The notes beneath the pieces were generated by a model. It was not told where the DNA came from and made no database searches. It was given only the letters and a program-made list of their open reading frames with translations. A stretch of 64,000 bases of DNA, from assembly GCA_964427245.1 (NCBI GenBank), contig CAYRSX010000038.1:2495-66494 (forward strand). The letters run 5' to 3'. Both the position numbers and the translations under genes were made by a program. This DNA comes from an uncultured Desulfobulbaceae bacterium (GTDB taxonomy: Bacteria; Desulfobacterota; Dissulfuribacteria; Dissulfuribacterales; DYLC01). Positions 3,026 through 57,416 of this stretch are shown in pieces. Each line of letters starts with the position of its first letter. Position 1 is the stretch's first letter.

Positions 3026-3123
3026 TGGCGGAAGCGCATGGGAATCGAACCCACCCACGAAGCTCTTCACCTCGTGCACTGGATTTGAAGTCCAGGAGGG
3101 CCACCAGTGCCCTTTCCGCTTCC
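3026..3123 (-). tRNA. selC: tRNA-Sec (anticodon UCA)
   Basis: The reverse complement reads GGAAGCGGAAAGGGCACTGGTGGCCCTCCTGGACTTCAAATCCAGTGCACGAGGTGAAGAGCTTCGTGGGTGGGTTCGATTCCCATGCGCTTCCGCCA. It has the anticodon loop CTTCAAA (UCA), a long variable arm (CACGAGG/CTTCGTG), a TTCGATT T-loop, encoded CCA and a GGAAG... 5' end like E. coli selC. Length is 98 nt. Confidence 0.9.
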
Positions 3124-8695: not shown

Positions 8696-11275
8696 TTGCA
8701 CCACAGCCTCCTCTTCATAACAGCCATTTTCTTCTTCTGCCTCGGCATTGCAGGAGCCTCTTGTAGTTTAGAGCCTGTTAGCCATGCAATGCAAAATGAT
8801 GCAATTCGGCTGGTCATCGGCTGGTCTTGTGTCTTTTTGGGTGGTTGCGGGCTTTTGGGACAGTTGGTTTCGTTTATTCGGCAAAAAAGGCAGGCAAATG
8901 CAGAGACAAGACCTGTCGGCCTTTCAACATACTTGCTGTCCTGCCTTTTTGCGGCCGTTTTGTTTCTGGGACTAGGCGGTGTGCATGTTTGTTTCTATGA
9001 AAAGAGCTATGCTGACAGGGCGGGGCCCCTTTGGGATATAGCGCAAAAAAAAGAGGAAGTGGTGCTTATAGGACAGGTGATTCGTATGCCTGTTTCCACT
9101 GAAAGAGGTGACACTCGTTTGCGTATAGGCCTGTTGGCAAGGGCCGAACCACAAGGCCTGTCACTCATCAAAGGCGATATCTTGCTTCATGTGAAGAGCC
9201 TGGATTATCGGGATGTGCTGCCGGGTGATGTCTTGCGTTTTGCGGTCAGATTACGGGAACCCAAGGGATTTGCTGTGCCCGGGGCCTTTGATCACAGGCT
9301 CTGGCTGGAGATTCAGGGCATTCATGCAACGGCAATTGTGGTCAGTCCTCTGAAGATGGCTGTGACCGGTCATTTTCACTCTTCTCCTGTGCTGCCTTAT
9401 TGGCGGTATGTGTTGGAGACGAAGCGAATGCGACTTGTTGAGGCGTTGTGCGAGGCATTCCCTTCAAATGACACGCGTAGCCTTGCAGTGGGTTTGCTGC
9501 TGGGCGAGCAGGCAGGCATGGACAAAGATGTCCGGGAGCTTGCTCAAGTGACCGGTATAAGCCATCTGCTGGCAGTTTCGGGCACCAATATGACTCTGGT
9601 TGCCCTTATGGCCGGGTTGCTCGTGTATCGTCTCCTCATTCACTGGCAGTTCATTGCACTGAGATTTTCCGTGCGGCGGATAGCGGCAGGCATGGCTGTG
9701 ATGGCCGTTCTTATATATGCTGGAATGGCGGGTTTTTCTGTTTCCGCCATACGGGCTGTACTTATGACCGTCGCCATCTCGGCCGCTTTTGTCCTGAACC
9801 GGCCTCAAAGCCTTTTGAACGCACTGGCCCTGGCTGGTCTGGTCCTGTTGCTCTTTGAGCCGTTACAGCTTTTCAGTCCCTCATTTCAGCTGTCTTTTGC
9901 GGCTGTCTTCTTTTTGTGCGGTCTGGCTGCGCCTTTTTTACAACGATTTGAAAAAACAACCACCCCGCCCTTCGGGCACCCCTCCACAGGAGGGGACACC
10001 ACTTCCGGCATAAATAGGCCGCCATTGATTACATTGAAATACCGCATCATATCCCTGTTTGTAGCGGGTTTTGTGGCCCTTTTGGCCACTGCTCCCTTTA
10101 TCGCATGGCATTTTCAAAGGTTTTCTTTGCTGGCTCTGCCTGTAAATCTCGTAGCGGTGCCCCTGACTGATCTCCTTTTGTTGCCGGGTCTTATGCTCGG
10201 GGCATTGTCGCTGCCTTTTTCTTCTGCAGTGGCCTTTGGTATCTGGCGAGTCATGGATGTAATTCTCGGTCTGTCTTTGAATGGTTTGCAGTGGATAAGC
10301 GGTTGGGAGTATGCTTCGTTTTGGTGCATCAAGCCATGGATGTGGCAGGTGGTCGTCTCATGTATGGTACTTCTGGCCCTAGTGTTGGCTGTTAGGCATA
10401 GGGGTCGGGAGAAGAGATGGCTTTGCATCTCATTGGTTTTGGCGATGACATGTGTGGGAGGGTTTTGGTATCGGACCTGGACGATATCCAACAGCAGTAC
10501 TCTTCGACTTCATGTTTTAGACGTAGGGCAGGGTTTGGCACAGGTAGTGGAAGGCCCTAGGGGTTTTTTGATGGTCATGGATGCAGGAGGTCTTGGCAAT
10601 ACGGATTTCGATACCGGAGAAAGGCTGGTGGCCCCTTTCATAAGACATCTCGGTTATAATACCATCGATCTCCTGGTGATGAGTCATCCTGAACAGGATC
10701 ACATGGGAGGTATTCCATATCTGCTCAGGCATTTTCGAGTCAAACGGTTTTGGAGCAATGGCGCTTCAGGAGAGGGGGAGACATGGAATCTACTTCAGAC
10801 AGCCCTTACGAAGACGGCCTGTACTGTTGAGACGCCTTCTGATGGCGATGTGTTGAATGTACAGGGTCTTTCCGTTCGGCCCCTCATCCTTCATGGATGC
10901 CACGGTCTGGAGACGCGAAACGCCCGTTCACTGGTGTTGCTATTGGAGTATCGAGGTCGCTCGCTCCTTCTTACAGGTGACATGGATGCCCAACGAGCGG
11001 CCTGTATTCTAAAAGAACTTTCTCATACGGATATCCTGGTAGCGCCTCATCATGGCAGCAAGGGCTCCAATTCCCCCGCGTTCGTTCAGGCGGCCAGTCC
11101 GGGCGTGGTGATATTTTCCGCTGGCAGGGACAATCCCTTTCATCTGCCCAACAAGTCGGTGATTCAGCGCTATATGGAGGTAGGCAGCAGGATTTTGACC
11201 ACAGAACGAAATGGAACCATCACGGTTGAGGTGAGTGCATCAAGTGCATTGAGTATAAGAAATAGCTTGCCGTGA
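8696..11275 (+). CDS. comEC: DNA internalization-related competence protein ComEC/Rec2 (polytopic membrane domain plus C-terminal metallo-beta-lactamase domain)
   Basis: Multiple TM segments. The competence-domain motif LAVSGTNMTLV is present, as is the C-terminal MBL motif LVMSHPEQDHMGG ... APHHGS. The start is TTG at 8696 (ORF track) and is uncertain. Confidence 0.8.
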   Translation: MHHSLLFITAIFFFCLGIAGASCSLEPVSHAMQNDAIRLVIGWSCVFLGGCGLLGQLVSFIRQKRQANAETRPVGLSTYLLSCLFAAVLFLGLGGVHVCFYEKSYADRAGPLWDIAQKKEEVVLIGQVIRMPVSTERGDTRLRIGLLARAEPQGLSLIKGDILLHVKSLDYRDVLPGDVLRFAVRLREPKGFAVPGAFDHRLWLEIQGIHATAIVVSPLKMAVTGHFHSSPVLPYWRYVLETKRMRLVEALCEAFPSNDTRSLAVGLLLGEQAGMDKDVRELAQVTGISHLLAVSGTNMTLVALMAGLLVYRLLIHWQFIALRFSVRRIAAGMAVMAVLIYAGMAGFSVSAIRAVLMTVAISAAFVLNRPQSLLNALALAGLVLLLFEPLQLFSPSFQLSFAAVFFLCGLAAPFLQRFEKTTTPPFGHPSTGGDTTSGINRPPLITLKYRIISLFVAGFVALLATAPFIAWHFQRFSLLALPVNLVAVPLTDLLLLPGLMLGALSLPFSSAVAFGIWRVMDVILGLSLNGLQWISGWEYASFWCIKPWMWQVVVSCMVLLALVLAVRHRGREKRWLCISLVLAMTCVGGFWYRTWTISNSSTLRLHVLDVGQGLAQVVEGPRGFLMVMDAGGLGNTDFDTGERLVAPFIRHLGYNTIDLLVMSHPEQDHMGGIPYLLRHFRVKRFWSNGASGEGETWNLLQTALTKTACTVETPSDGDVLNVQGLSVRPLILHGCHGLETRNARSLVLLLEYRGRSLLLTGDMDAQRAACILKELSHTDILVAPHHGSKGSNSPAFVQAASPGVVIFSAGRDNPFHLPNKSVIQRYMEVGSRILTTERNGTITVEVSASSALSIRNSLP
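9956..10005. repeat. copy of the GC-rich double-hairpin repeat module (M5) embedded in-frame in comEC
   Basis: The reverse complement GAAGTGGTGTCCCCTCCTGTGGAGGGGTGCCCGAAGGGCGGGGTGGTTGT matches 37605..37655 apart from one substitution and a 1-nt indel. Confidence 0.85.
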
Positions 11276-11336
11276 TGTAGTTTCAGCCTTTATTATGAGA
11301 AGGGAAAACAAACCCGTAGGTATCTGAAATAATAGG

Positions 11337-11353
11337 ACAGGCGTCTCGCCTGT
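11337..11353. repeat. repeat module M2 hairpin (ACAGGCG-TCT-CGCCTGT)
   Basis: This palindromic 17-mer lies between comEC and gmhA. The same module recurs at about 21220-21235, 37556-37575 and 45156-45173. Confidence 0.7.
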
Positions 11354-11376
11354 TCTACTGGTATGAAAGGGACAAC

Positions 11377-13572: not shown

Positions 13573-13606
13573 GCGGAACAGACCGGCCAGTCTGTTCCGC
13601 TTTTTT
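13573..13606 (+). terminator. rho-independent terminator after the cytochrome gene
   Basis: GCGGAACAGAC-cggcca-GTCTGTTCCGC followed by TTTTTT. Confidence 0.85.
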
Positions 13607-13648
13607 GTCCCAAAAATAGACATGGGATGAGAAATCTATATGTTACTG

Positions 13649-13730
13649 GTCATTGCGAAAACTCAAAGAGTTCGTGGCAATCTCATTACAACATATGAGA
13701 TTGCTTCGCTTTGCTTGCAATAACAATCTT
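13649..13730. repeat. two head-to-head copies of repeat module M6 (GTCATTGCGA...GCAATCTC type)
   Basis: GGTCATTGCGAAAACTCAAAGAGTTCGTGGCAATCTCAT-tacaacat-ATGAGATTGCTTCGCTTTGCTTGCAATAA contains a perfect 10-bp inverted repeat, GCAATCTCAT/ATGAGATTGC. A related GAGATTGCTTCG unit occurs at about 45231. Confidence 0.65.
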
Positions 13731-13929
13731 CTATGTCTATTTTTCGGTTTTGTTTTAATGGTTGTTTTTTTCCGGTGACGTGAGTATGTTAAAAAAATTA
13801 ACAAAACTCCCATAAAAGTGTCCTTTTGTCCGTTCTACGCCTTGGTCAATGGACAAAATTACATTTTTTGGCAGTTTTCTTCGTTGTATTTGGTTGTTGA
13901 TTAAATAGTTGCAGAAAAGGAGCTGGCCC

Positions 13930-18133: not shown

Positions 18134-19675
18134 TCAGGGTTTCAGCCTTATAACCTCAAACCGATATGTCTCGTGGTCTGCGTGAGCATCGAATGGTTCC
18201 GTATTGCATAGTTTCGTATGGCGCTCTTGAAATGTCCTTTTTTTCTTTGAAGCGAGCATAGCTGGTCCTCGCACAAGAATTACAAACTCCTCTTTCAATT
18301 CATGTCGTTTCACCAGTTTCTGCACATAATCAGGCCAATTTTCAGAAAGTTTCTTTAAATAAAATGGAATCACTCCCCATGAAAACAGCAGGTCTTGACA
18401 GACCTTTTTCGAGTCTGCAAAGGCTATCAGCCATACTGGCAGTCTGAGGCGAGAAATGCGCCTTACAGTTGTGCCGCTTTGAGTGGGTATTACTACCATG
18501 GCCACCTGCAGGTGTGAGACTGCATTTTTAATGCTGGTGGAGATGATGTCTTTTACTACCAGTTTTTGTGTCATCGGCCATGCTGCATGCAGCATATTCA
18601 AATGTGCCGTCGTATCGGCATAAAGATTCCCCTTTTCCGTGGCCGTTGCTATGGCAGTCATCATTCTGACCGTCTCTATTGGATATTCACCTATGGCGGT
18701 TTCCTCTGAAAGCATTACGCAGTCAGCCCCATCCAATATGGCATTTGCCACGTCTGTGGCCTCTGCTCGAGTGGGTCTTTTGTTGTGCAGCATAGATTCC
18801 AGCATCTGTGTGGCTAAAATCACGGGTTTTCCTGCCTCGTTTGCCTTTTTTATGAGTTTTTTCTGCAGAATGGCCATTTCTTCTATGGGTGTTTCCACTC
18901 CCAGGTCGCCTCTTGCTACCATGATGCCGTCCGCTTTATCAAGGATGCGGTCTATGTCGGCCACAGCCTGACTGCGTTCTATCTTGGCGATAACCAAGGG
19001 GTTATAGTCGAGATCTTTTAGGATGTTTTGCAGCTCTTGAATATCTGCAGCATTTTGTACGAAAGACAGACTGACGGCTTCGATTGCATGCTTGGCTGCA
19101 AAGATTATGCCTCTATGGTCTGTATCTGTAATGGCGCTGATATTCAGATCCACGCCTGGTAGATTTACTCCCTTGTGAGACATCACTGGGCCGCCAAGCA
19201 GCACTTGACAGCGGATTAGGGACGAGTGCACCTCTTTTACCACCAATTGCACCATACCATCGTTTATGAAGATGATGTTATTGGGTTTTAATGCCTTTAA
19301 AAGCATAATATCGGCATTTTCTGCTTTGTCTCGCATGGTGGCGTTGATTTGAATCGGCAGAATATTTTCAGCTGATTGCTGTCGTGTACTCAGAAAGATT
19401 TCGTCGTGAGTGTGCAGTAAAAACGGCTCGTTGATGAGTTTGCCCAGGCGTATTTTCGGGCCTGGTAGGTCTAGAAGAATAGCCACGGTTCTTTTTAGTT
19501 CTTGAGCAGTCTTTCGTATATTTTTTACAAGATAGGCATGTTCTTTTAGGGAGCCGTGGGCCAGATTCAACCTGGCGATGGTCATTCCTGCTTGTATCAG
19601 CTGTTTAATGGTGTTAAATGAGTTTGAGGCAGGGCCGATAGTGCATACAATCTTTGTCTTTGCATATTCAAACAT
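18134..19675 (-). CDS. pyk: pyruvate kinase
   Basis: KTKIVCTIGPAS, MTIARLNLAHGS, MVARGDLGVE and ATQMLESM motifs are present, plus a C-terminal extension of about 40 aa. Confidence 0.9.
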   Translation of the reverse strand: MFEYAKTKIVCTIGPASNSFNTIKQLIQAGMTIARLNLAHGSLKEHAYLVKNIRKTAQELKRTVAILLDLPGPKIRLGKLINEPFLLHTHDEIFLSTRQQSAENILPIQINATMRDKAENADIMLLKALKPNNIIFINDGMVQLVVKEVHSSLIRCQVLLGGPVMSHKGVNLPGVDLNISAITDTDHRGIIFAAKHAIEAVSLSFVQNAADIQELQNILKDLDYNPLVIAKIERSQAVADIDRILDKADGIMVARGDLGVETPIEEMAILQKKLIKKANEAGKPVILATQMLESMLHNKRPTRAEATDVANAILDGADCVMLSEETAIGEYPIETVRMMTAIATATEKGNLYADTTAHLNMLHAAWPMTQKLVVKDIISTSIKNAVSHLQVAMVVIPTQSGTTVRRISRLRLPVWLIAFADSKKVCQDLLFSWGVIPFYLKKLSENWPDYVQKLVKRHELKEEFVILVRGPAMLASKKKRTFQERHTKLCNTEPFDAHADHETYRFEVIRLKP

Positions 19676-21146: not shown

Positions 21147-21339
21147 AAGGATTTCTCGGTCGCTGTGCTTCATTCGAAATGACACTTGTTGTTGTGTGAC
21201 AGGCGAGATGTTTGCGACAGGTGAGACGCCTGTCTTACGGGTAGTGTCTTTGTCATTTTCGAGCGAAGTGGTTGTAATTGCTTACGAACTGGCTGTCATT
21301 TCGAGCGAAGCGAGAAATCTTATAAAAGCGAGGAATCTT
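21147..21339. repeat. mosaic repeat cluster (modules M1inv-M2-M2-M1-M1), colinear with 37486..37746
   Basis: AAGGATTTCTCGGTCGCTGTGCTTCATTCGAAATGACA ... GACAGGTGAGACGCCTGTCTTAC ... TGTCATTTTCGAGCGAAGTGGTTGTAATTGC ... TGTCATTTCGAGCGAAGCGAGAAATCTT. By eye it is near-identical, module for module, to the cluster after pyrC. Confidence 0.85.
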
Positions 21340-21341
21340 TT

Positions 21342-21767
21342 ATGACGATGCAGAACGATTGGCAGCGTTGCGTTGCGTTTCATGGCCATGCCTGTCCTGG
21401 TTTGGCCATAGGCTTTCGAGCGTGTGAGGCACTGAAACAGGTCATGGACCTGCATTTTTCCAAGGATGAGGAACTGGTTTGCATAACGGAAAATGATGCC
21501 TGCGGCGTGGATGCGGTACAGGTATTGACCGGCTGCATCTTTGGTAAGGGTAATCTCATTTATCGGGATGTGGGCAAGATGGCATTTACCTTTTTTGAGC
21601 GACATGCAGGTAAGGGTGTGCGAGTGGTGTTCAAGGGAGTCATGCCCCAGGGCATGGATCGCAATAAATGGCAGGAATATATATTGACAGCGCCGGTTTT
21701 CGAGTTGTTTCAAGTAACTGAGCCCAGATGTGAGTTGCCGCCCAAGGCCCGTATGAGGAAGATGTAG
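21342..21767 (+). CDS. FmdE-family domain protein (short form without the C-terminal zinc ribbon)
   Basis: WQRCVAFHGHACPGLAIGFRACEA is the FmdE-family N-terminal motif. The protein ends at 141 aa with no CxxC pairs. Confidence 0.65.
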   Translation: MTMQNDWQRCVAFHGHACPGLAIGFRACEALKQVMDLHFSKDEELVCITENDACGVDAVQVLTGCIFGKGNLIYRDVGKMAFTFFERHAGKGVRVVFKGVMPQGMDRNKWQEYILTAPVFELFQVTEPRCELPPKARMRKM

Positions 21768-21861
21768 ATGCTATGTTTTTAAAGGCATTAAAACCCGAAA
21801 ACATCGTCTTCATAAACGAAGGCAAGGTTGCATGACGGAAAGTCCTATTGTATCGATTGCT

Positions 21862-22254
21862 TTACGAGGCTTTGCGTCTGACGTGAACACGCTCCACGAT
21901 CTTTCGATAATAGACCTGGTTTGTCTCCAGAGAGACCTTGGTGCGGCGCATTAGATTCATTTTTGTTATGAGCAGATTGAGTTTGTTGATCTGCCGGTAG
22001 CGTTCTTCCTCTGTAGTAAGGTGTTTTATCATGTCCATGGTGGTGTGAATCTCTTTGGCTGTCTCCAGCTCAGGAGGTAAATAACCGGCGTTTTTGAGAA
22101 TCTTGTAGGCCATACGCAGGTCAGGCGGCACAAAGGAATCGTCTTCGTATTCAAGGGGACGTCCCTTTCCCTGTAGATTGTCGAAATCTCCGCGTTCCAT
22201 AGCCTCTTGGATGCGTTTCTCCGCAATGTATTCCAAAAAATTCAAGTTACTCAT
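21862..22254 (-). CDS. DUF1992 (DnaJ-C28-like) domain protein
   Basis: IAEKRIQEAMERGDFDNLQGKGRPL..DD matches the DUF1992 signature. I chose the ATG at 22254 (MSNLNFLEY...) to avoid overlapping the upstream kinase gene. Confidence 0.65.
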   Translation of the reverse strand: MSNLNFLEYIAEKRIQEAMERGDFDNLQGKGRPLEYEDDSFVPPDLRMAYKILKNAGYLPPELETAKEIHTTMDMIKHLTTEEERYRQINKLNLLITKMNLMRRTKVSLETNQVYYRKIVERVHVRRKAS

Positions 22255-22286: not shown

Positions 22287-23645
22287 TCAAGGCAGCATGC
22301 TGTCTTTTACTTGTCCTTGCGTTTTTTCCTTCCATCTCACAGGGAATGTGCAGATTACGCAGGTGCCTTTGTTTGGTTCACTTTCAATGGAGATATTTCC
22401 CTGATGTTCTTCCAATATCTCTTTGACCAAAAAAAGTCCGAGTCCTGTGCCCCCTGGTTTGGTGGTGATGGGTGTTGTAAAGAGTTTTTCTTTTATTTCC
22501 GGCGGAATGCCCTGGCCTTTGTCACAGATAATGACAGAAGGCCTTCCATCCTGACGCAGTAGTTTGATTTGAATGGTACTGTGTGCAGGTGATGCCTCCA
22601 GCGCATTTCTGAGAATATGAATAAATGCGGTTTTCAGAACGCGTTTGTTGGCCATGATCCCCAGGGGTTCCTGTGAAATATCTATCGCAAGCTTTATATC
22701 TTTTTTGGCCAGTCCGGGTTGCCATGTATTCACAACCTCTGTGATGATGTTTTTGAGGTTCTCTTTTGTAAAAGAACGAATCTCCTTTGCGGTCAACTCC
22801 TCGAAGTTCTTCACGAAATCAGAGAGTTCCTTCATGGCCTTTTGAATTATTGCAAGTTTTTGACGGGTGTTTTCAGTTAATGTGGAGTCCTTTTCCAGGA
22901 TAGTGGAGATGAGCCCGCCTGTCACCATCACAGGGTTTCGAATACGGTCCGCTATGCGTAGCGCCATCTGTATGGTGGTGTGTTCTCTGGCCATCGCCTC
23001 CATGTCCTGACTCAGTTGTAGAAGTTCTAAATTCATTCGGTCCAGCTGGTGGTTTTGCAGACTGGTCTGCTCCAGCAGCCGCAGCACCTCTGCGTGTTTG
23101 AGGCGTAGATTTTCCAGGTAGGATTCTTCTGTGTTTTTAAAGAGTTCATTTCTGAAGGAAGCCTCTTTTTTTTGTATTTCGTCCCACGACTTTTGAATGC
23201 CCCATTTGACCGCACTGATTTCAATAGGGGTGTCAATTGTGCCGCCGGTTATGCTGACCTCGTCCAGTACCTTTTTAAGGCCATGAATTACAGGTGTTTT
23301 GTTTAAGGCTGCCTTGTCGGCAGGACATGTGTCGCCATTCAGATTGGTTGCATCGCAGGGTCTTTTGCTTTGGAAGAGGAGTTCTATGCCGCTCTGTTCG
23401 AGTATTTCCTTCATATTGTTTTTTGGAGCTTTCTTGCAGCAGAGAATGCTCATCGTGACTGTTCCGGTTCTGGCCATGCGCATCATCCAGCGAGTCATCT
23501 CGGATGCAGATACAGCTACCTGCGTGGTGGCTATACGGTTCAACCCGCAGATATGACATAGGAGTTTGCTCTTCATGCGCACCTTAGGGATATCTTCCTG
23601 TCTTTTAATCACCAGGGTCAGAATATGCAGTCGGTTCATGTCCAT
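22287..23645 (-). CDS. histidine-kinase-like protein with an intact HATPase_c domain but Asp at the H-box position
   Basis: N-box HILRNALEA, G1 DKGQGIP and G2 GGTGLGL are all present. The DHp-like helix reads ALRIADRIRNPVMVTGG, so Asp233 sits where HE.RNP kinases have His. The N-terminal region of about 120 aa is Cys-rich. Confidence 0.7.
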   Translation of the reverse strand: MDMNRLHILTLVIKRQEDIPKVRMKSKLLCHICGLNRIATTQVAVSASEMTRWMMRMARTGTVTMSILCCKKAPKNNMKEILEQSGIELLFQSKRPCDATNLNGDTCPADKAALNKTPVIHGLKKVLDEVSITGGTIDTPIEISAVKWGIQKSWDEIQKKEASFRNELFKNTEESYLENLRLKHAEVLRLLEQTSLQNHQLDRMNLELLQLSQDMEAMAREHTTIQMALRIADRIRNPVMVTGGLISTILEKDSTLTENTRQKLAIIQKAMKELSDFVKNFEELTAKEIRSFTKENLKNIITEVVNTWQPGLAKKDIKLAIDISQEPLGIMANKRVLKTAFIHILRNALEASPAHSTIQIKLLRQDGRPSVIICDKGQGIPPEIKEKLFTTPITTKPGGTGLGLFLVKEILEEHQGNISIESEPNKGTCVICTFPVRWKEKTQGQVKDSMLP

Positions 23646-27858: not shown

Positions 27859-27969
27859 GGAGTGAGCCTATTGAACGGAGATTTCGCGGGAGAACACACA
27901 GGTTCACCCTTACAAATATATGACATTTTTTTTGAAGGATGTAAATGGCTGAAATTTATTTCACGCGCA

Positions 27970-27997
27970 GTAGGGGCGCACGGCCGTGCGCCCCTAC
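27970..27997. repeat. perfect 28-nt palindrome (repeat module M3)
   Basis: GTAGGGGCGCACGGCCGTGCGCCCCTAC is its own reverse complement. A degenerate copy lies at about 31902..31929. Confidence 0.9.
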
Positions 27998-31832: not shown

Positions 31833-31929
31833 GTGACAGGTGGCCTCTTTTGTCATTTCGGGCAAACCCTCTGTCATTTCGAGCGTAGCGAGAAATCTTA
31901 AGTAGGGGCGCATAGCCGTGCGTCTCTAC
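31833..31929. repeat. mosaic repeat cluster (M1 variants plus a degenerate M3)
   Basis: TGTCATTTCGGGCAAACCCTCTGTCATTTCGAGCGTAGCGAGAAATCTTAAGTAGGGGCGCATAGCCGTGCGTCTCTAC. The first part is colinear with 37697..37746. Confidence 0.85.
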
Positions 31930-37485: not shown

Positions 37486-37746
37486 AAGGATTTCTCAGTC
37501 GCTGTGCTTCATTCGAAATGACACTGGTTGTTGTGTGCTACAGGCGAGACGGTTGTGACAGGCGTCTCGCCTGTCTTACGAGTGGTGCCTTTGTCATTTC
37601 GAGCGAAGTGGTGTCCCCTCCTGTGGGGAGGGTGCCCGAAGGGCGGGGTGGTTGTAATTGCTCACGAACTGGCTGTCATTTCGAGTGAAGCGGTTGTGAT
37701 TTCGAGCAAACCCTCTGTCATCCCGAGCGTAGCGAGGAATCTTAAG
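37486..37746. repeat. largest mosaic repeat cluster (M1inv-M2-M2-M1[M5 nested]-M1-M1-M1)
   Basis: Colinear with 21147..21339 but with an extra 40-nt module (37612..37651) and additional M1 variants (GTGATTTCGAGCAAACCCTC, TGTCATCCCGAGCGTAGCGAGGAATCTTAAGG). Confidence 0.9.
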
Positions 37747-41725: not shown

Positions 41726-41792
41726 GGGGGCATGTCCCCCGTGGCCGCCTGAAACAGGGCAGGGGCAGGTACGGGCACGGCATGCCGTGCCC
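41726..41792. repeat. GC-rich hairpin/palindrome modules (M4 type)
   Basis: GGGGGCATGTCCCCC and the perfect 20-nt palindrome GGGCACGGCATGCCGTGCCC (41773..41792). They are related to 43037..43064. Confidence 0.8.
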
Positions 41793-41824
41793 CAACAACC
41801 CTGATTTTTAAAGTTTTCACACTA

Positions 41825-43036: not shown

Positions 43037-43145
43037 TTAAGGACACGGCATGCCGTGTCCTTAACCTGTTATTTCGAGCGAAGCGAGAAATCTTTACAAA
43101 GTAGCACAGTCCTGTCTGTGTTTTTTTTACAGCCTCGAAATGACA
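43037..43145. repeat. mosaic repeat cluster (28-nt perfect palindrome M4, M1, inverted M1 fragment)
   Basis: TTAAGGACACGGCATGCCGTGTCCTTAA (43037..43064, perfect palindrome), then TGTTATTTCGAGCGAAGCGAGAAATCTTT ... CCTCGAAATGACA. Confidence 0.85.
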
Positions 43146-45054: not shown

Positions 45055-45318
45055 TTATTTTGAGCGCAGCGAGAAATTGGGTGACAGGCGAGGCACTTGT
45101 CCTACTGTTAGAATGATAGAGGGTTTGCTCGGAATGACAACCGCACCACCGGTATGACAGGTGTCTCGCCTGTTATACAATGACAACAAGTGTCATTTCG
45201 AAGGAGCGCAGCGACTGAGAAATCTTGTTTTGAGATTGCTTCGTCTTCGGCTCGCGATGACAGTTGCGGAGCGAGCCCTCTTTACCTGTCATTCCGAGCG
45301 AAGCGAGGAATCTTAACA
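45055..45318. repeat. mosaic repeat cluster (M1, M2, inverted M1 variants, M6 fragment)
   Basis: ...TTTTGAGCGCAGCGAGAAATT..GACAGGCGAGGCACTTGTCC..AGAGGGTTTGCTCGGAATGACA..GACAGGTGTCTCGCCTGT..TGTCATTTCGAAGGAGCGCAGCGACTGAGAAATCTT..GAGATTGCTTCG..TGTCATTCCGAGCGAAGCGAGGAATCTTAA. Confidence 0.85.
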
Positions 45319-50143: not shown

Positions 50144-50148
50144 TAATT

Positions 50149-50237
50149 AGATTTCTCGCTTTGCTCGAAATGACAGCCATTGCTACATTGAGCCATTTTG
50201 TTGTTATTTCGAGCCTGTGAAACAGGCGAGAAATCTT
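50149..50237. repeat. mosaic repeat cluster (inverted M1, M1/M2 hybrid)
   Basis: AGATTTCTCGCTTTGCTCGAAATGACA ... TGTTATTTCGAGCCTGTGAAACAGGCGAGAAATCTT. Confidence 0.8.
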
Positions 50238-50274
50238 GTTCCATATTCGCTGCCCTCTCTATCCTTCTTGCGAT

Positions 50275-57334: not shown

Positions 57335-57416
57335 ATGGTTGTGAATCTGGCAAAAATAGCCGGTAGAATAGGCATCTCGCCTGTAGCTATGTGAATCTTT
57401 TAGATGGAGTGAGTCT

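What the first reader, a model, noticed from the sequence alone, without database searches (positions are those of the whole stretch)
21147..21339. A mosaic family of short hairpin/palindrome modules fills at least ten intergenic regions of this window
The same small set of modules recurs in both orientations and in different combinations.

Modules:
- M1: TGTCATTTCGAGCGAAGCGAGAAATCTT and variants (TCATTCCGAGCG..GAGGAATCTTAA, ..GAGCAAACCCTC)
- M2: GACAGGCGAGACGCCTGTCTTAC hairpin
- M3: GTAGGGGCGCACGGCCGTGCGCCCCTAC
- M4: GGACACGGCATGCCGTGTCC
- M5: TGTCCCCTCCTGTGGGGAGGGTGCCCGAAGGGCGGGGTGG
- M6: GTCATTGCGA...GCAATCTC

Locations: 11337-11353, 13649-13730, 21147-21339, 27970-27997, 31833-31929, 37486-37746, 41726-41792, 43037-43145, 45055-45318 and 50149-50237. 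There is a fragment near 57370 and one coding copy at 9956-10005.

Clusters 21147..21339 and 37486..37746 are colinear and by eye near-identical over more than 150 nt. The clusters occur after co-directional genes and between divergent genes, and no transposase is nearby. The organisation recalls BIME/REP-type mosaic elements, but the modules are different. Their density here, several percent of the window, suggests an active or recently active non-autonomous element system or a structured-RNA/insulator role.
Basis: seen in the sequence. Interest (0 to 1): 0.65.

Follow-up and report, generated by a model that had tools for sequence, protein, structure and literature searches.

The report
Mosaic clusters of REP-type hairpin repeats
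Ten gaps between genes in this window hold small DNA hairpin repeats of the known REP class, and the commonest one belongs to the TGTC/CGTC-tagged hairpins that partner a small single-strand DNA nuclease (Ssn), so this is a real, recently mobile repeat system but not a new kind.

Summary
All six modules sit at the stated coordinates, and the three largest clusters are colinear.

- **M1** (TGTCATTYCGAGCGNAGCGAGRAATCT) is not specific to this genome. The exact 26-mer occurs in more than 118 loci from about 19 phyla. Its stem covaries strongly. It keeps the GTC before the palindrome and the C after it, the determinants that SsnA needs on the Neisseria NTS/dRS3 repeat.
- **Link to a nuclease.** In 80 metagenome loci chosen only by a small GIY-YIG nuclease gene, 60 carry such hairpins within 250 nt of the gene, and 42 carry them on both sides. 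M1 is therefore a TGTC-tagged REP, or Ssn-related hairpin. It is a subtype that the published SRM search string misses.
- **M2 to M4** are REP-like palindromes, partly GTAG-tagged.
- **Recent mobility.** Three related genomes lack these insertions: a 146-nt element in a terminator T-tract, the 21147 cluster, M2 after comEC, and a 39-nt in-frame M5 insertion in comEC.
- **Missing partner.** No nuclease or transposase gene lies in the window, so the partner enzyme in this organism is inferred, not shown.
- **Density.** The clusters cover 1.9% of the window, not several percent.

Verdict: a new member of a known kind, of moderate interest.

The parts
9962..10000 (-). M5 double-hairpin module, a 39-nt in-frame insertion (13 aa, TTPPFGHPSTGGD) in comEC
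   Evidence: It is absent from five ComEC relatives of 70-84% identity. The DNA empty site is AAAACAACC|GATTCCGG in L134 and L135. It is 93-100% complementary to the intergenic copy at 37605-37655 (I5 and I9).
11333..11358 (-). M2 hairpin. On the - strand it reads GTAGAACAGGCGAGACGCCTGTCCTA, so it is GTAG-tagged.
   Evidence: (D3). It is absent from the comEC-SIS spacer of L134, L135 and L136.
13601..13746 (.). Cluster B, a 146-nt palindromic element inserted in the T-tract of an intrinsic terminator. Its core is a head-to-head dimer of M1-family arms (13648-13685 +, 13696-13725 -). Its outer inverted ends are AAAAATAGACAT..ATGTCTATTTTT, and TTTTGT is a candidate target duplication.
   Evidence: It is absent in L134, L135 and L136 (alignment A2). 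It folds as a long hairpin with z = -4.4. The arms were found.
21147..21339 (.). Cluster C, made of: a reversed long M1 arm (21147-21184, -); M2 (21215-21239, tag on -); a truncated M1 5' half (21251-21271, +); a full M1 (21294-21322, +); and an M1 3' fragment (21327-21339) that supplies GAGGA 8 nt before the fmdE ATG.
   Evidence: The whole cluster folds as one long hairpin with z = -3.2. The enolase-fmdE spacer is 284 nt here, against 104 nt in L135 and 60 nt in L136, which lack the modules.
27969..27997 (.). M3, the perfect palindrome GTAGGGGCGCAC GGCC GTGCGCCCCTAC, lying between divergent genes
   Evidence: D8, I10. DNA fold -15.8 kcal/mol, z = -5.7.
31833..31929 (+). Cluster E, made of: a partial M2; an M1 half-copy plus the linker AAACCCTC (31852-31871); a full M1 (31872-31900); and M3 (31902-31929).
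   Evidence: (D1, D8).
37486..37746 (.). Cluster F, colinear with cluster C. It is made of: a reversed long M1 arm (37486-37523, -); M2 (37555-37579); a truncated M1 (37592-37609); the M5 insertion (37610-37649); a truncated M1 (37674-37692); a half-copy plus linker (37694-37715); and a full M1 with an ATCCC/GGAAT stem (37716-37744).
   Evidence: Fold z = -4.4. A spurious 73-aa ORF is called across it in public assemblies.
41726..41795 (.). Cluster G, made of a GGGGGCATGTCCCCC hairpin and the M4 variant GTACGGGCACGGCATGCCGTGCCC, between two - strand genes
   Evidence: (I20). A public short-read contig ends at window position 41794.
43037..43145 (.). Cluster H, made of M4 (43037-43064), a full M1 (43067-43095, +) and an inverted M1 5' half (43133-43145, -), between divergent genes (DAHP synthase and Fur)
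45055..45318 (.). Cluster I, an inverted copy of the C/F composite plus extra arms. It is made of: an M1 3' part (about 45059-45077); a half-copy plus linker (45112-45140, -); M2 (45153-45178); a long M1 arm (45191-45227, +); an M1-family arm with an ATCGC/GCAAT stem (45232-45263, -); and a full M1 (45287-45315, +).
   Evidence: (I2, I8, I13). A public contig starts at window position 45287.
50147..50238 (.). Cluster J, a tail-to-tail dimer: M1 (50147-50175, -) and an M1-frame arm whose core is replaced by CCTGT GAAA CAGG (50202-50238, +)
   Evidence: (I4, I6, I7).

Best explanation
The intergenic clusters are mosaics of REP-class hairpin repeats, comparable to BIMEs of enterobacteria and NIMEs of Neisseria.

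**What the modules are.**
- M1 is the dominant module. It is a TGTC-tagged hairpin of the CGTC-tagged REP superfamily. Its layout is a (T/C)GTC tag, a 5-bp stem that starts A-T then T-A, a tandem G.A pair, a 2-bp G-C clamp, a GNA loop, and then an invariant C.
- This is the same frame as the Neisseria NTS/dRS3 repeat, which forms a hairpin in single-stranded DNA. There it is bound by the 94-aa GIY-YIG nuclease SsnA and cut a few bases upstream.
- M2 to M4 are G+C-rich REP-like palindromes, partly GTAG-tagged.
- M5 is a 40-nt double hairpin.

**How they behave.** The modules do not encode anything. They insert next to and into one another, and composites (M1 arm, M2, M1 arm) are then copied as units.

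**Shown here.**
- The hairpin is under selection.
- The tag and the 3' C are conserved.
- M1-type hairpins flank Ssn-like GIY-YIG genes in many phyla.
- Four insertions in the window are absent from related genomes.

**Inferred.**
- This organism encodes a cognate Ssn-type nuclease outside the window.
- That nuclease acts on M1 in ssDNA, at replication forks or on incoming transforming DNA.
- It is involved in, or tolerated by, the spread of the repeats.

The copying mechanism itself is unknown, for this family as well as for this window.
For: **Identity of M1.**
These include isolates of Hymenobacter and Luteimonas.
- In 63 copies not selected by the search pattern, 90.9% of stem cells pair, against 16.6-54.2% (32-42% at slides of 1-2 columns) when the 3' partner is slid. 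Six of 7 pairs show changes on both sides. There are 87 doubly changed cells against 26.8 +/- 7.1 in shuffles.
- The base after the palindrome is C in 48 of 48 fully paired copies. The base before GTC is T in 37 and C in 7 of those 48.
- PMC11893778 reports that the three bases upstream of the palindrome govern cleavage and that the C after it governs binding.
- PMC3733652 describes CGTC/TGTC tags, stems that begin with A-T pairs, head-to-head dimers, the lack of a dedicated transposase, and intragenic copies.

**Link to the nuclease, from the repeat side.**
- Small GIY-YIG ORFs (PF01541, 96-112 aa) lie next to M1 in 4 of 118 repeat-selected loci.
- L091 has the hairpin-gene-hairpin layout.

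**Link to the nuclease, from the protein side.**
- Of 80 metagenome loci chosen only by the GIY-YIG protein, 60 have tagged hairpins within 250 nt of the gene, and 42 have them on both sides.
- Density is 4.27 per kb near the gene against 0.56 per kb farther away. Shuffled sequence gives about 0.18 per kb.
- Core types include the M1 type, the long M1 type and the exact NTS type (L193).

**Mobility.**
- Searches show the empty sites in relatives.
- One search shows M5 present in cluster F and absent at the same site in cluster C.
- None of the modules occurs in 60 kb of the relatives' syntenic DNA.
Against: - No GIY-YIG gene lies in the 64-kb window or in 8 kb beyond its right end, so the partner in this genome is unverified.
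- M1 does not match the published SRM search string. Only 6 of 241 hairpins in the GIY-YIG loci match it.
- Membership of my GIY-YIG proteins in cd10448 could not be tested directly. No PDB or NCBIfam match was found.
- In the window most arm pairs are tail-to-tail with long spacers. The family's usual arrangement is the head-to-head dimer.
- Cluster B has terminal inverted ends and a possible 6-bp target duplication, which would fit a DDE-type MITE better.
- M2 to M5 were not found outside this window in 1.2 Mb of other loci, so their genome-wide status is not shown.
- SsnA is a nuclease. No one has shown that it copies repeats.
Confidence: 0.7

Rival explanations
1. All modules are REPINs. 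On this view the hairpin doublets are mobilised by one or more RAYT (Y1 HUH) transposases encoded elsewhere in the genome, as in Pseudomonas and E. coli.
For: - M3 (2 of 2 copies) and one M2 copy carry a 5' GTAG tag. Stems are 7-12 bp with 3-4 nt loops.
- The clusters fold as long hairpins.
- The layout resembles BIMEs (PMC3333891, seen).
Against: - M1 carries TGTC, not GTAG.
- PMC3733652 found no RAYT flanked by CGTC-type repeats.
- In my loci M1 flanks GIY-YIG genes, not Y1 genes.
- M2 tags are mostly GTAA or GTAT, and M4 tags are GTAC or TTAA.
- No Y1 gene lies in the window.
Confidence: 0.1
2. The clusters are kept mainly for an RNA-level role. They would act as 3' hairpins that terminate or stabilise the upstream transcript, or as a small RNA, and their spread would be secondary.
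For: - Eight of 10 clusters lie between co-directional genes. Several start 3-15 nt after a stop codon.
- PMC3733652 argues that many REPs are transcribed.
- One M1 fragment supplies the ribosome-binding site of fmdE.
Against: - There is no Rfam match.
- G-T and A-C mismatches are equally common in stems, 9 against 10, so there is no sign of a G-U-tolerant RNA strand.
- The arms occur on both strands, about 8 on + and 4 on -.
- No T-run follows M1 or M3.
- SsnA does not bind RNA.
- The upstream gene of cluster B already has its own intrinsic terminator.
Confidence: 0.1
3. The elements are conventional MITEs, deletion derivatives of an insertion sequence, moved by a DDE transposase that recognises terminal inverted repeats and makes target duplications.
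For: - Cluster B has 12-nt inverted ends, and TTTTGT is repeated at both junctions.
- Elsewhere M1 pairs look like inverted termini around short spacers.
Against: - The candidate duplication lies in a T-tract, where a repeat arises easily by chance.
- The M5 insertion has no duplication.
- No transposase lies between M1 pairs in any locus. L035 was checked.
- No transposase family recurs near M1.
- Stem covariation with a fixed tag and loop points to recognition of a hairpin, not of a duplex terminus.
- There is no second copy of the outer ends of cluster B.
Confidence: 0.05

Closest known systems
NTS/dRS3 repeats and the SsnA nuclease of Neisseria; Ssn-related motifs (SRM) in other bacteria (Chenal et al. 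2025, PMC11893778)
   Same: - The frame is the same: (C/T)GTC, then ATTCC..GGAAT, then C.
- GTC lies before the palindrome and C after it.
- The hairpin is oriented.
- Copies flank small single-domain GIY-YIG genes on both sides with the tags outward.
- There are many copies clustered between genes.
   Different: - The inner stem is a tandem G.A pair plus a G-C clamp with a GNA loop, not CCGCG..CGCGG.
- The published SRM string does not match.
- No ssnA gene is seen in the window.
- Cleavage and any effect on transformation are untested here.
CGTC-tagged REP superfamily (Di Nocera et al. 2013, PMC3733652)
   Same: - The tag is TGTC or CGTC.
- The stems start A-T, T-A.
- Head-to-head dimers are common in other phyla, at about 46% of copies.
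- There is no dedicated transposase.
- Copies lie mostly after co-directional genes.
- Intragenic copies occur.
   Different: - The tail is C-T-N rather than CCA.
- I could not see the figure with the four family consensus sequences, so I cannot assign M1 to one of those families.
- The host range seen here, about 19 phyla, is far wider than the 5 phyla reported.
Neisseria intergenic mosaic elements (NIMEs): repeat units flanked by inverted dRS3 copies (from my own knowledge of the N. meningitidis genome papers)
   Same: The composite in clusters C, F and I is an inner unit (M2) flanked by inverted M1-family arms, and it is repeated as a block.
   Different: The inner units are themselves REP-like hairpins of another type. 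The arms are tail-to-tail. The host lineage is different.
REP/BIME elements and REPINs with RAYT transposases (PMC3333891, PMC3116915)
   Same: - They are short tagged palindromes.
- They form inverted doublets and mosaic clusters.
- They are non-autonomous.
- M3 and one M2 copy carry GTAG.
   Different: - M1 has a different tag and a different associated protein family.
- No RAYT is seen.
- REP sequences are usually species-specific, whereas M1 is near-identical across phyla.
Rickettsia palindromic elements, of which RPE-4 and RPE-6 are CGTC-type (PMC3733652)
   Same: A short palindromic module is inserted in frame in a protein-coding gene. Here it is M5 in comEC, adding 13 residues in a region of variable length.
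   Different: M5 is a double hairpin, not an M1 copy. Only one coding insertion is seen.
Small dispersed repeats (SDR) of Nostoc (Elhai et al. 2008, from my own knowledge)
   Same: The units are 21-40 nt hairpins with compensatory changes, and insertions nest into one another.
   Different: The sequences are unrelated. SDRs are confined to a group of cyanobacteria. An RNA intermediate was proposed there.

Membership tests
CGTC/TGTC-tagged REP superfamily (PMC3733652) | An unpaired CGTC tag (often TGTC or CCTC) at one end of the hairpin | tested here: met
   All full M1 arms in the window start with TGTC, or with TGTT or GGTC in 4 arms. In 48 copies from other genomes that were not selected by the search pattern, the base before GTC is T in 37 and C in 7.
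CGTC/TGTC-tagged REP superfamily (PMC3733652) | The stem begins with complementary A-T residues in its first and second positions | tested here: met
   The first pair is A-T in 52 of 63 copies. The second is T-A in 47 of 63, with 6 C-G.
CGTC/TGTC-tagged REP superfamily (PMC3733652) | A stem of 8-9 bp with a loop of 4-5 nt | tested here: inconclusive
   M1 has 5 bp, then a tandem G.A pair, then 2 bp and a 3-nt loop. Counted as 8 stem positions with a 5-nt loop (CGAAG) it fits. Counted strictly it does not.
CGTC/TGTC-tagged REP superfamily (PMC3733652) | A short unpaired tail, consensus CCA | tested here: inconclusive
   The tail is C (48 of 48), then T (40 of 48), then any base. The first C agrees and the rest does not.
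CGTC/TGTC-tagged REP superfamily (PMC3733652) | Head-to-head dimers predominate, and there is no dedicated transposase | tested here: met
   - About 46% of 136 copies in other genomes have an inverted partner within 120 nt, with spacers peaking at 15-35 nt.
- No transposase family recurs nearby.
- The window has 1 head-to-head pair (cluster B) and several tail-to-tail pairs.
Ssn-related motif / NTS (PMC11893778) | A match to the published degenerate string HGTCWYN(0-2)YYVSBRHN(0-5)WNVSBRGN(0-2)RNCYNB | tested here: not met
   NTS matches. M1, long M1 and M6 do not. The window has 0 matches. Only 6 of 241 hairpins in the GIY-YIG loci match.
Ssn-related motif / NTS (PMC11893778) | GTC directly upstream of the palindrome (needed for cleavage) and C directly after it (needed for binding) | tested here: met
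   All 12 full arms in the window are followed by C.
Ssn-related motif / NTS (PMC11893778) | The hairpins flank a small single-domain GIY-YIG gene (motif-gene-motif) | tested here: met
   This is met in other genomes: L091, L102, L075 and L115. It also holds in 60 of 80 protein-selected loci, 42 of them on both sides. It is not met in the window itself, where no such gene occurs.
Ssn-related motif / NTS (PMC11893778) | The cognate protein belongs to cd10448 and cuts the motif as ssDNA only | not testable with these tools
   CDD is not available. Pfam gives PF01541 only. There is no PDB or NCBIfam match. Protein lengths of about 94-100 aa agree with SsnA.
GTAG-tagged REP / REPIN with RAYT | A GTAG or GTGG tag 0-2 nt 5' of a hairpin with at least 7 paired bases and a 2-5 nt loop (PMC6006769) | tested here: inconclusive
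   - M3 has GTAG in 2 of 2 copies, but the tag is itself paired because the palindrome is perfect.
- M2 has GTAG in 1 of 4 copies; the others have GTAA (2) and GTAT (1).
- M4 has it in 0 of 2 copies, with GTAC and TTAA instead.
- Stems and loops fit.
GTAG-tagged REP / REPIN with RAYT | A RAYT gene in the genome flanked by the same repeat | not testable with these tools
   No Y1 gene lies in the window. The rest of the genome is not available.
MITE derived from an insertion sequence | Terminal inverted repeats, a target-site duplication, and a parent IS with the same ends | tested here: inconclusive
   - Cluster B has 12-nt inverted ends and a possible TTTTGT duplication in a T-tract.
- M5 has none.
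- No parent IS was found.
Known non-coding RNA family (Rfam 15) | A match at or above the gathering score | tested here: not met
   Only tRNA-Sec at 3030-3123 passes. The clusters give only chance-level matches.

The most novel reading that the evidence does not exclude
The M1-type hairpin, with its tandem G.A pair and GNA loop, would be the main cognate site of a very large, horizontally spreading branch of Ssn-type GIY-YIG nucleases. It would be near-identical over about 19 phyla and missed by the published motif. In this genome it would co-mobilise unrelated GTAG-like REPs as hybrid units (M1 arm, M2, M1 arm). That would mean one ssDNA hairpin and nuclease system builds mosaic elements out of two REP superfamilies and can write short peptides into genes such as comEC.
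Probability: 0.15. Interest if true: 0.6.

Novelty: new member of a known kind. Interest (0 to 1): 0.35.

Why it matters
- **Scope of the Ssn-associated repeats.** The finding extends these hairpin repeats to an unnamed lineage near Thermodesulfobacteriota, known only from raw-read assemblies. The commonest environmental form of the hairpin lies outside the published search motif, so surveys based on that motif undercount the family.
- **Material for studying spread.** The window offers clean filled and empty sites. One is in a terminator T-tract, one is a nested insertion, and one is an in-frame insertion in comEC. These could help work out how the repeats spread, which is still unknown.
- **Practical consequences.** The repeats break short-read assemblies and give rise to spurious ORF calls.

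Tried and rejected
- **Autonomous element between two M1 copies.** L035 is a 3.3-kb contig bounded by inverted M1 copies, but it holds ordinary genes and no transposase.
- **All-against-all clustering of ORFs in 118 M1 loci.** No transposase family recurred. Only the small GIY-YIG cluster was informative.
- **BLAST of M1 against plasmid and phage collections.** No match. There were only 13 exact hits in 2.9 million viral contigs, so plasmids and phages are not obvious carriers.
- **Rfam.** Searches at gathering and at permissive thresholds gave nothing real.
- **Literature search by sequence string.** Only an unrelated paper came up.
- **The spurious 73-aa ORF over cluster F as a probe for other copies.** It found only itself.
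- **Extending beyond the window.** The 8 kb to the right carries no modules. The left-end look-up failed, as did the exact look-up of ComEC.
- **A second copy of the outer ends of cluster B.** None in the window or in viral contigs.
- **M2 to M5 in 1.2 Mb of loci from other organisms.** Only one M2-like hit, in L084.
- **Solved structures and NCBIfam for the GIY-YIG proteins.** No specific match.
- **Nearest-neighbour DNA energy for M1 alone.** It is not better than shuffles (z = 0.3-0.4). The parameters do not credit tandem G.A pairs or GNA triloops, so I relied on covariation instead.
Full report

Yes.
- An unbiased repeat search recovers them as families D1-D3, D6-D8 and as inverted pairs I2, I4-I10, I13, I16, I17, I20 and I23.
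- The M1 pattern GTCATTYCGAGCGWAGCGAGRAATCT has six matches with at most one mismatch. None is expected in 100 shuffles.
- Clusters C (21147-21339) and F (37486-37746) are colinear over about 190 nt. Cluster I (45055-45318) is an inverted third copy of the same composite.
- Eight clusters lie between co-directional genes and two between divergent genes.
- The clusters sum to about 1.2 kb. That is 1.9% of the window and roughly a fifth of its non-coding DNA, so 'several percent' is too high.

**2. M1 is not specific to this genome.**

- The record titles name about 19 phyla. Examples are Acidobacteriota, Chloroflexota, Planctomycetota, Bacteroidota, Nitrospirota, Bacillota, several classes of Pseudomonadota, a Roizmanbacteria genome and one Nanoarchaeota bin that may be contamination.
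- Cultured Hymenobacter and Luteimonas strains are also among them.
- M1 is absent from the plasmid and phage collections and rare in viral contigs, with 13 hits.

**3. The hairpin is under selection.**

I anchored only on GTC and the core GAnCGnAGnGA at fixed spacing, and I removed every copy that matched the search pattern.
- The 63 distinct remaining copies pair at 90.9% of stem cells, against 32-42% when the 3' partner is slid by one or two columns and 16.6-54.2% over all slides of up to three columns.
- Six of seven pairs carry changes on both sides. There are 87 doubly changed cells against 26.8 +/- 7.1 in shuffles.
- Stems seen include ATTCC/GGAAT, ATTTC/GAAAT, ATTCT/AGAAT, ATCCT/AGGAT, ATCCC/GGGAT, ACCCT/AGGGT, ATGCC/GGCAT and ATCTC/GAGAT.
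- The inner G-C pair switches to A-T in the GAACGAAGTGA form.
- Constant features are the (T/C)GTC tag, a tandem G.A pair, a C-G pair closing a GNA loop, and a C right after the palindrome. That C is present in 48 of 48 fully paired copies and was not imposed by my anchor.
- G-T and A-C mismatches are equally frequent, 9 against 10. This gives no sign of an RNA-only constraint.
- The GCGAAGC core is, from my own knowledge, a very stable DNA mini-hairpin. The energy model does not credit this.

**4. What the literature says.**

- Di Nocera et al. (PMC3733652) sorted REPs into GTAG-tagged and CGTC-tagged superfamilies. In the CGTC group the tag is often TGTC, stems begin with A-T pairs, head-to-head dimers prevail and no transposase is associated. 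Members include Neisseria dRS3 and Rickettsia RPE-4 and RPE-6, and copies inside genes occur.
- Chenal et al. (PMC11893778) showed that the Neisseria repeat NTS (CGTCATTCCCGCGMAVGCGGGAATCYRG) is bound and cut, as single-stranded DNA only, by the 94-aa GIY-YIG protein SsnA.
- In that work, the three bases before the palindrome control cleavage and the C after it controls binding.
- Homologous genes in many phyla are flanked by related hairpins.
- M1 has the same frame and the same two determinants.

**5. I tested the link to the nuclease in both directions.**

- From the repeat side, four of the 118 loci hold a small GIY-YIG ORF (PF01541, 96-112 aa) next to M1-family hairpins. In L091 one hairpin lies just upstream and an inverted one just downstream. 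These four proteins, from three distant groups, are 43-52% identical.
- From the protein side, I fetched 80 metagenome loci using only that protein family.
  - Sixty have a GTC-tagged hairpin followed by C within 250 nt of the gene, and 42 have one on both sides.
  - The typical layout is upstream on the gene strand and downstream inverted.
  - Density is 4.27 per kb near the gene and 0.56 per kb elsewhere, against about 0.18 per kb in shuffled sequence.
  - The cores include the M1 type, the long M1 type seen in clusters C, F and I, and the exact NTS type (L193).
- The protein family is very large, with typical lengths of 94-100 aa, and it includes Thermodesulfobacteriota.
- The published SRM string does not match M1. 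It matches only 6 of 241 hairpins in these loci, whereas 119 have the tandem G.A frame. M1 is therefore a subtype that the published motif misses. This is why I file it under the family by architecture and not by the string.

**6. The other modules.**

- On the - strand, M2 reads GTA(G/A/T)(A/G)ACAGGCG..CGCCTGTC.
- M3 is a perfect palindrome that starts with GTAG.
- M4 starts with GTAC or TTAA.
- They look like GTAG-type REPs, but only M3 and one M2 copy carry the canonical tag. No RAYT gene is available to test.
- None of M2 to M5 turned up in 1.2 Mb of loci from other organisms, apart from one M2-like hit.

**7. The elements were mobile recently.**

Its ComEC has relatives of 84, 78, 77 and 70% identity in raw-read assemblies. 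The nearest named hits, at about 40% identity, are Deltaproteobacteria, Thermodesulfobacteriaceae and Dissulfurirhabdus. Syntenic loci of three relatives (L134, L135, L136) give four filled-versus-empty comparisons.
- (a) M5 is a 39-nt in-frame insertion in comEC that adds 13 residues in a stretch of variable length. It is absent from five relatives.
- (b) The same module sits in cluster F at GAAGT^GGTTGT, where cluster C has the empty site. The comEC target is GAATC^GGTTGT, and the two bases left of the insertion changed to GT. This hints at copying with a little flanking sequence rather than cut-and-paste with a target duplication.
- (c) Cluster B is a 146-nt insertion in the T-tract of an intrinsic terminator. 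It is absent in all three relatives and folds as a long hairpin.
- (d) The enolase-fmdE spacer is 284 nt here, against 104 and 60 nt in two relatives that lack the modules. M2 after comEC is also absent in the relatives.

None of the modules is found in 60 kb of the relatives' DNA.

**8. What is not shown.**

- The window has no GIY-YIG, Y1 or other transposase gene. The 8 kb beyond its right end has no modules.
- Whether this organism has a cognate nuclease is inferred from the family-level association, not observed. So are the genome-wide number of module copies and the way they are copied.
- Public short-read contigs end at window positions 21294, 41794 and 45287, each at the edge of a module. 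The repeats within the window would suffice to cause these breaks.

**9. Verdict.**

This is a real, dense and recently active set of REP-class repeats. Its main module belongs to a described family with a described partner enzyme. It is a new member of a known kind, with some useful details: a subtype outside the published motif, hybrid composites, and an in-frame insertion in comEC.

Noticed in passing
window 3030-3123 (-): A selenocysteine tRNA gene, with a 74.1-bit match to RF01852. It is the only Rfam match in the window.
   Followed up: no
window 21758-21828 versus 19251-19321: A stretch of about 70 nt just after the fmdE stop is 84% identical to the sense strand of an internal part of the pyruvate kinase gene 2.4 kb away (I1, 82). 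It looks like a short ectopic copy of a gene fragment. The fmdE ORF here is 141 aa, against 172-173 aa called in relatives.
   Followed up: partly
window 21327-21344: A 3' fragment of M1 (AGCGAGGAATCTT) places GAGGA 8 nt before the fmdE ATG. The relatives have their own GGAGG there. A repeat fragment seems to have replaced the ribosome-binding site.
   Followed up: partly
window 31852-31900, 37694-37744, 45112-45140; L075, L117, L073, L016 and others: M1 is often preceded, 18-26 nt upstream, by a direct half-copy (GTCATTYCGAGC) and a pyrimidine-rich linker of 7-10 nt. This occurs in 14 of 136 copies from other phyla and three times in the window. The origin of this arrangement is unexplained. 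Possibilities are slippage, insertion into the loop, or an alternative hairpin.
   Followed up: partly
L136 about 22290-22325 and L135 about 22000-22025: The relatives carry other small palindromes in the enolase-fmdE spacer. One of them, in L136, is GTAG-tagged (GTAGAGGTATGTGCAGACATGCCTCTAC). Each lineage seems to have its own REP-like set.
   Followed up: no
window 21294, 41794 and 45287: Public short-read contigs of the same organism end exactly at module edges. The repeats break assemblies. A 73-aa ORF is called across cluster F.
   Followed up: partly
window 8696-11275 (+): The gene that carries the M5 insertion is comEC, the channel for uptake of transforming DNA (Pfam DUF4131, Competence, Lactamase_B). 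In Neisseria the related repeat and nuclease pair modulates transformation (PMC11893778). The coincidence may mean nothing.
   Followed up: no
L004 (Nanoarchaeota bin), 2729-2754: One exact M1 copy lies on a 3.8-kb contig of an archaeal metagenome bin. This could be contamination of the bin or real transfer.
   Followed up: no
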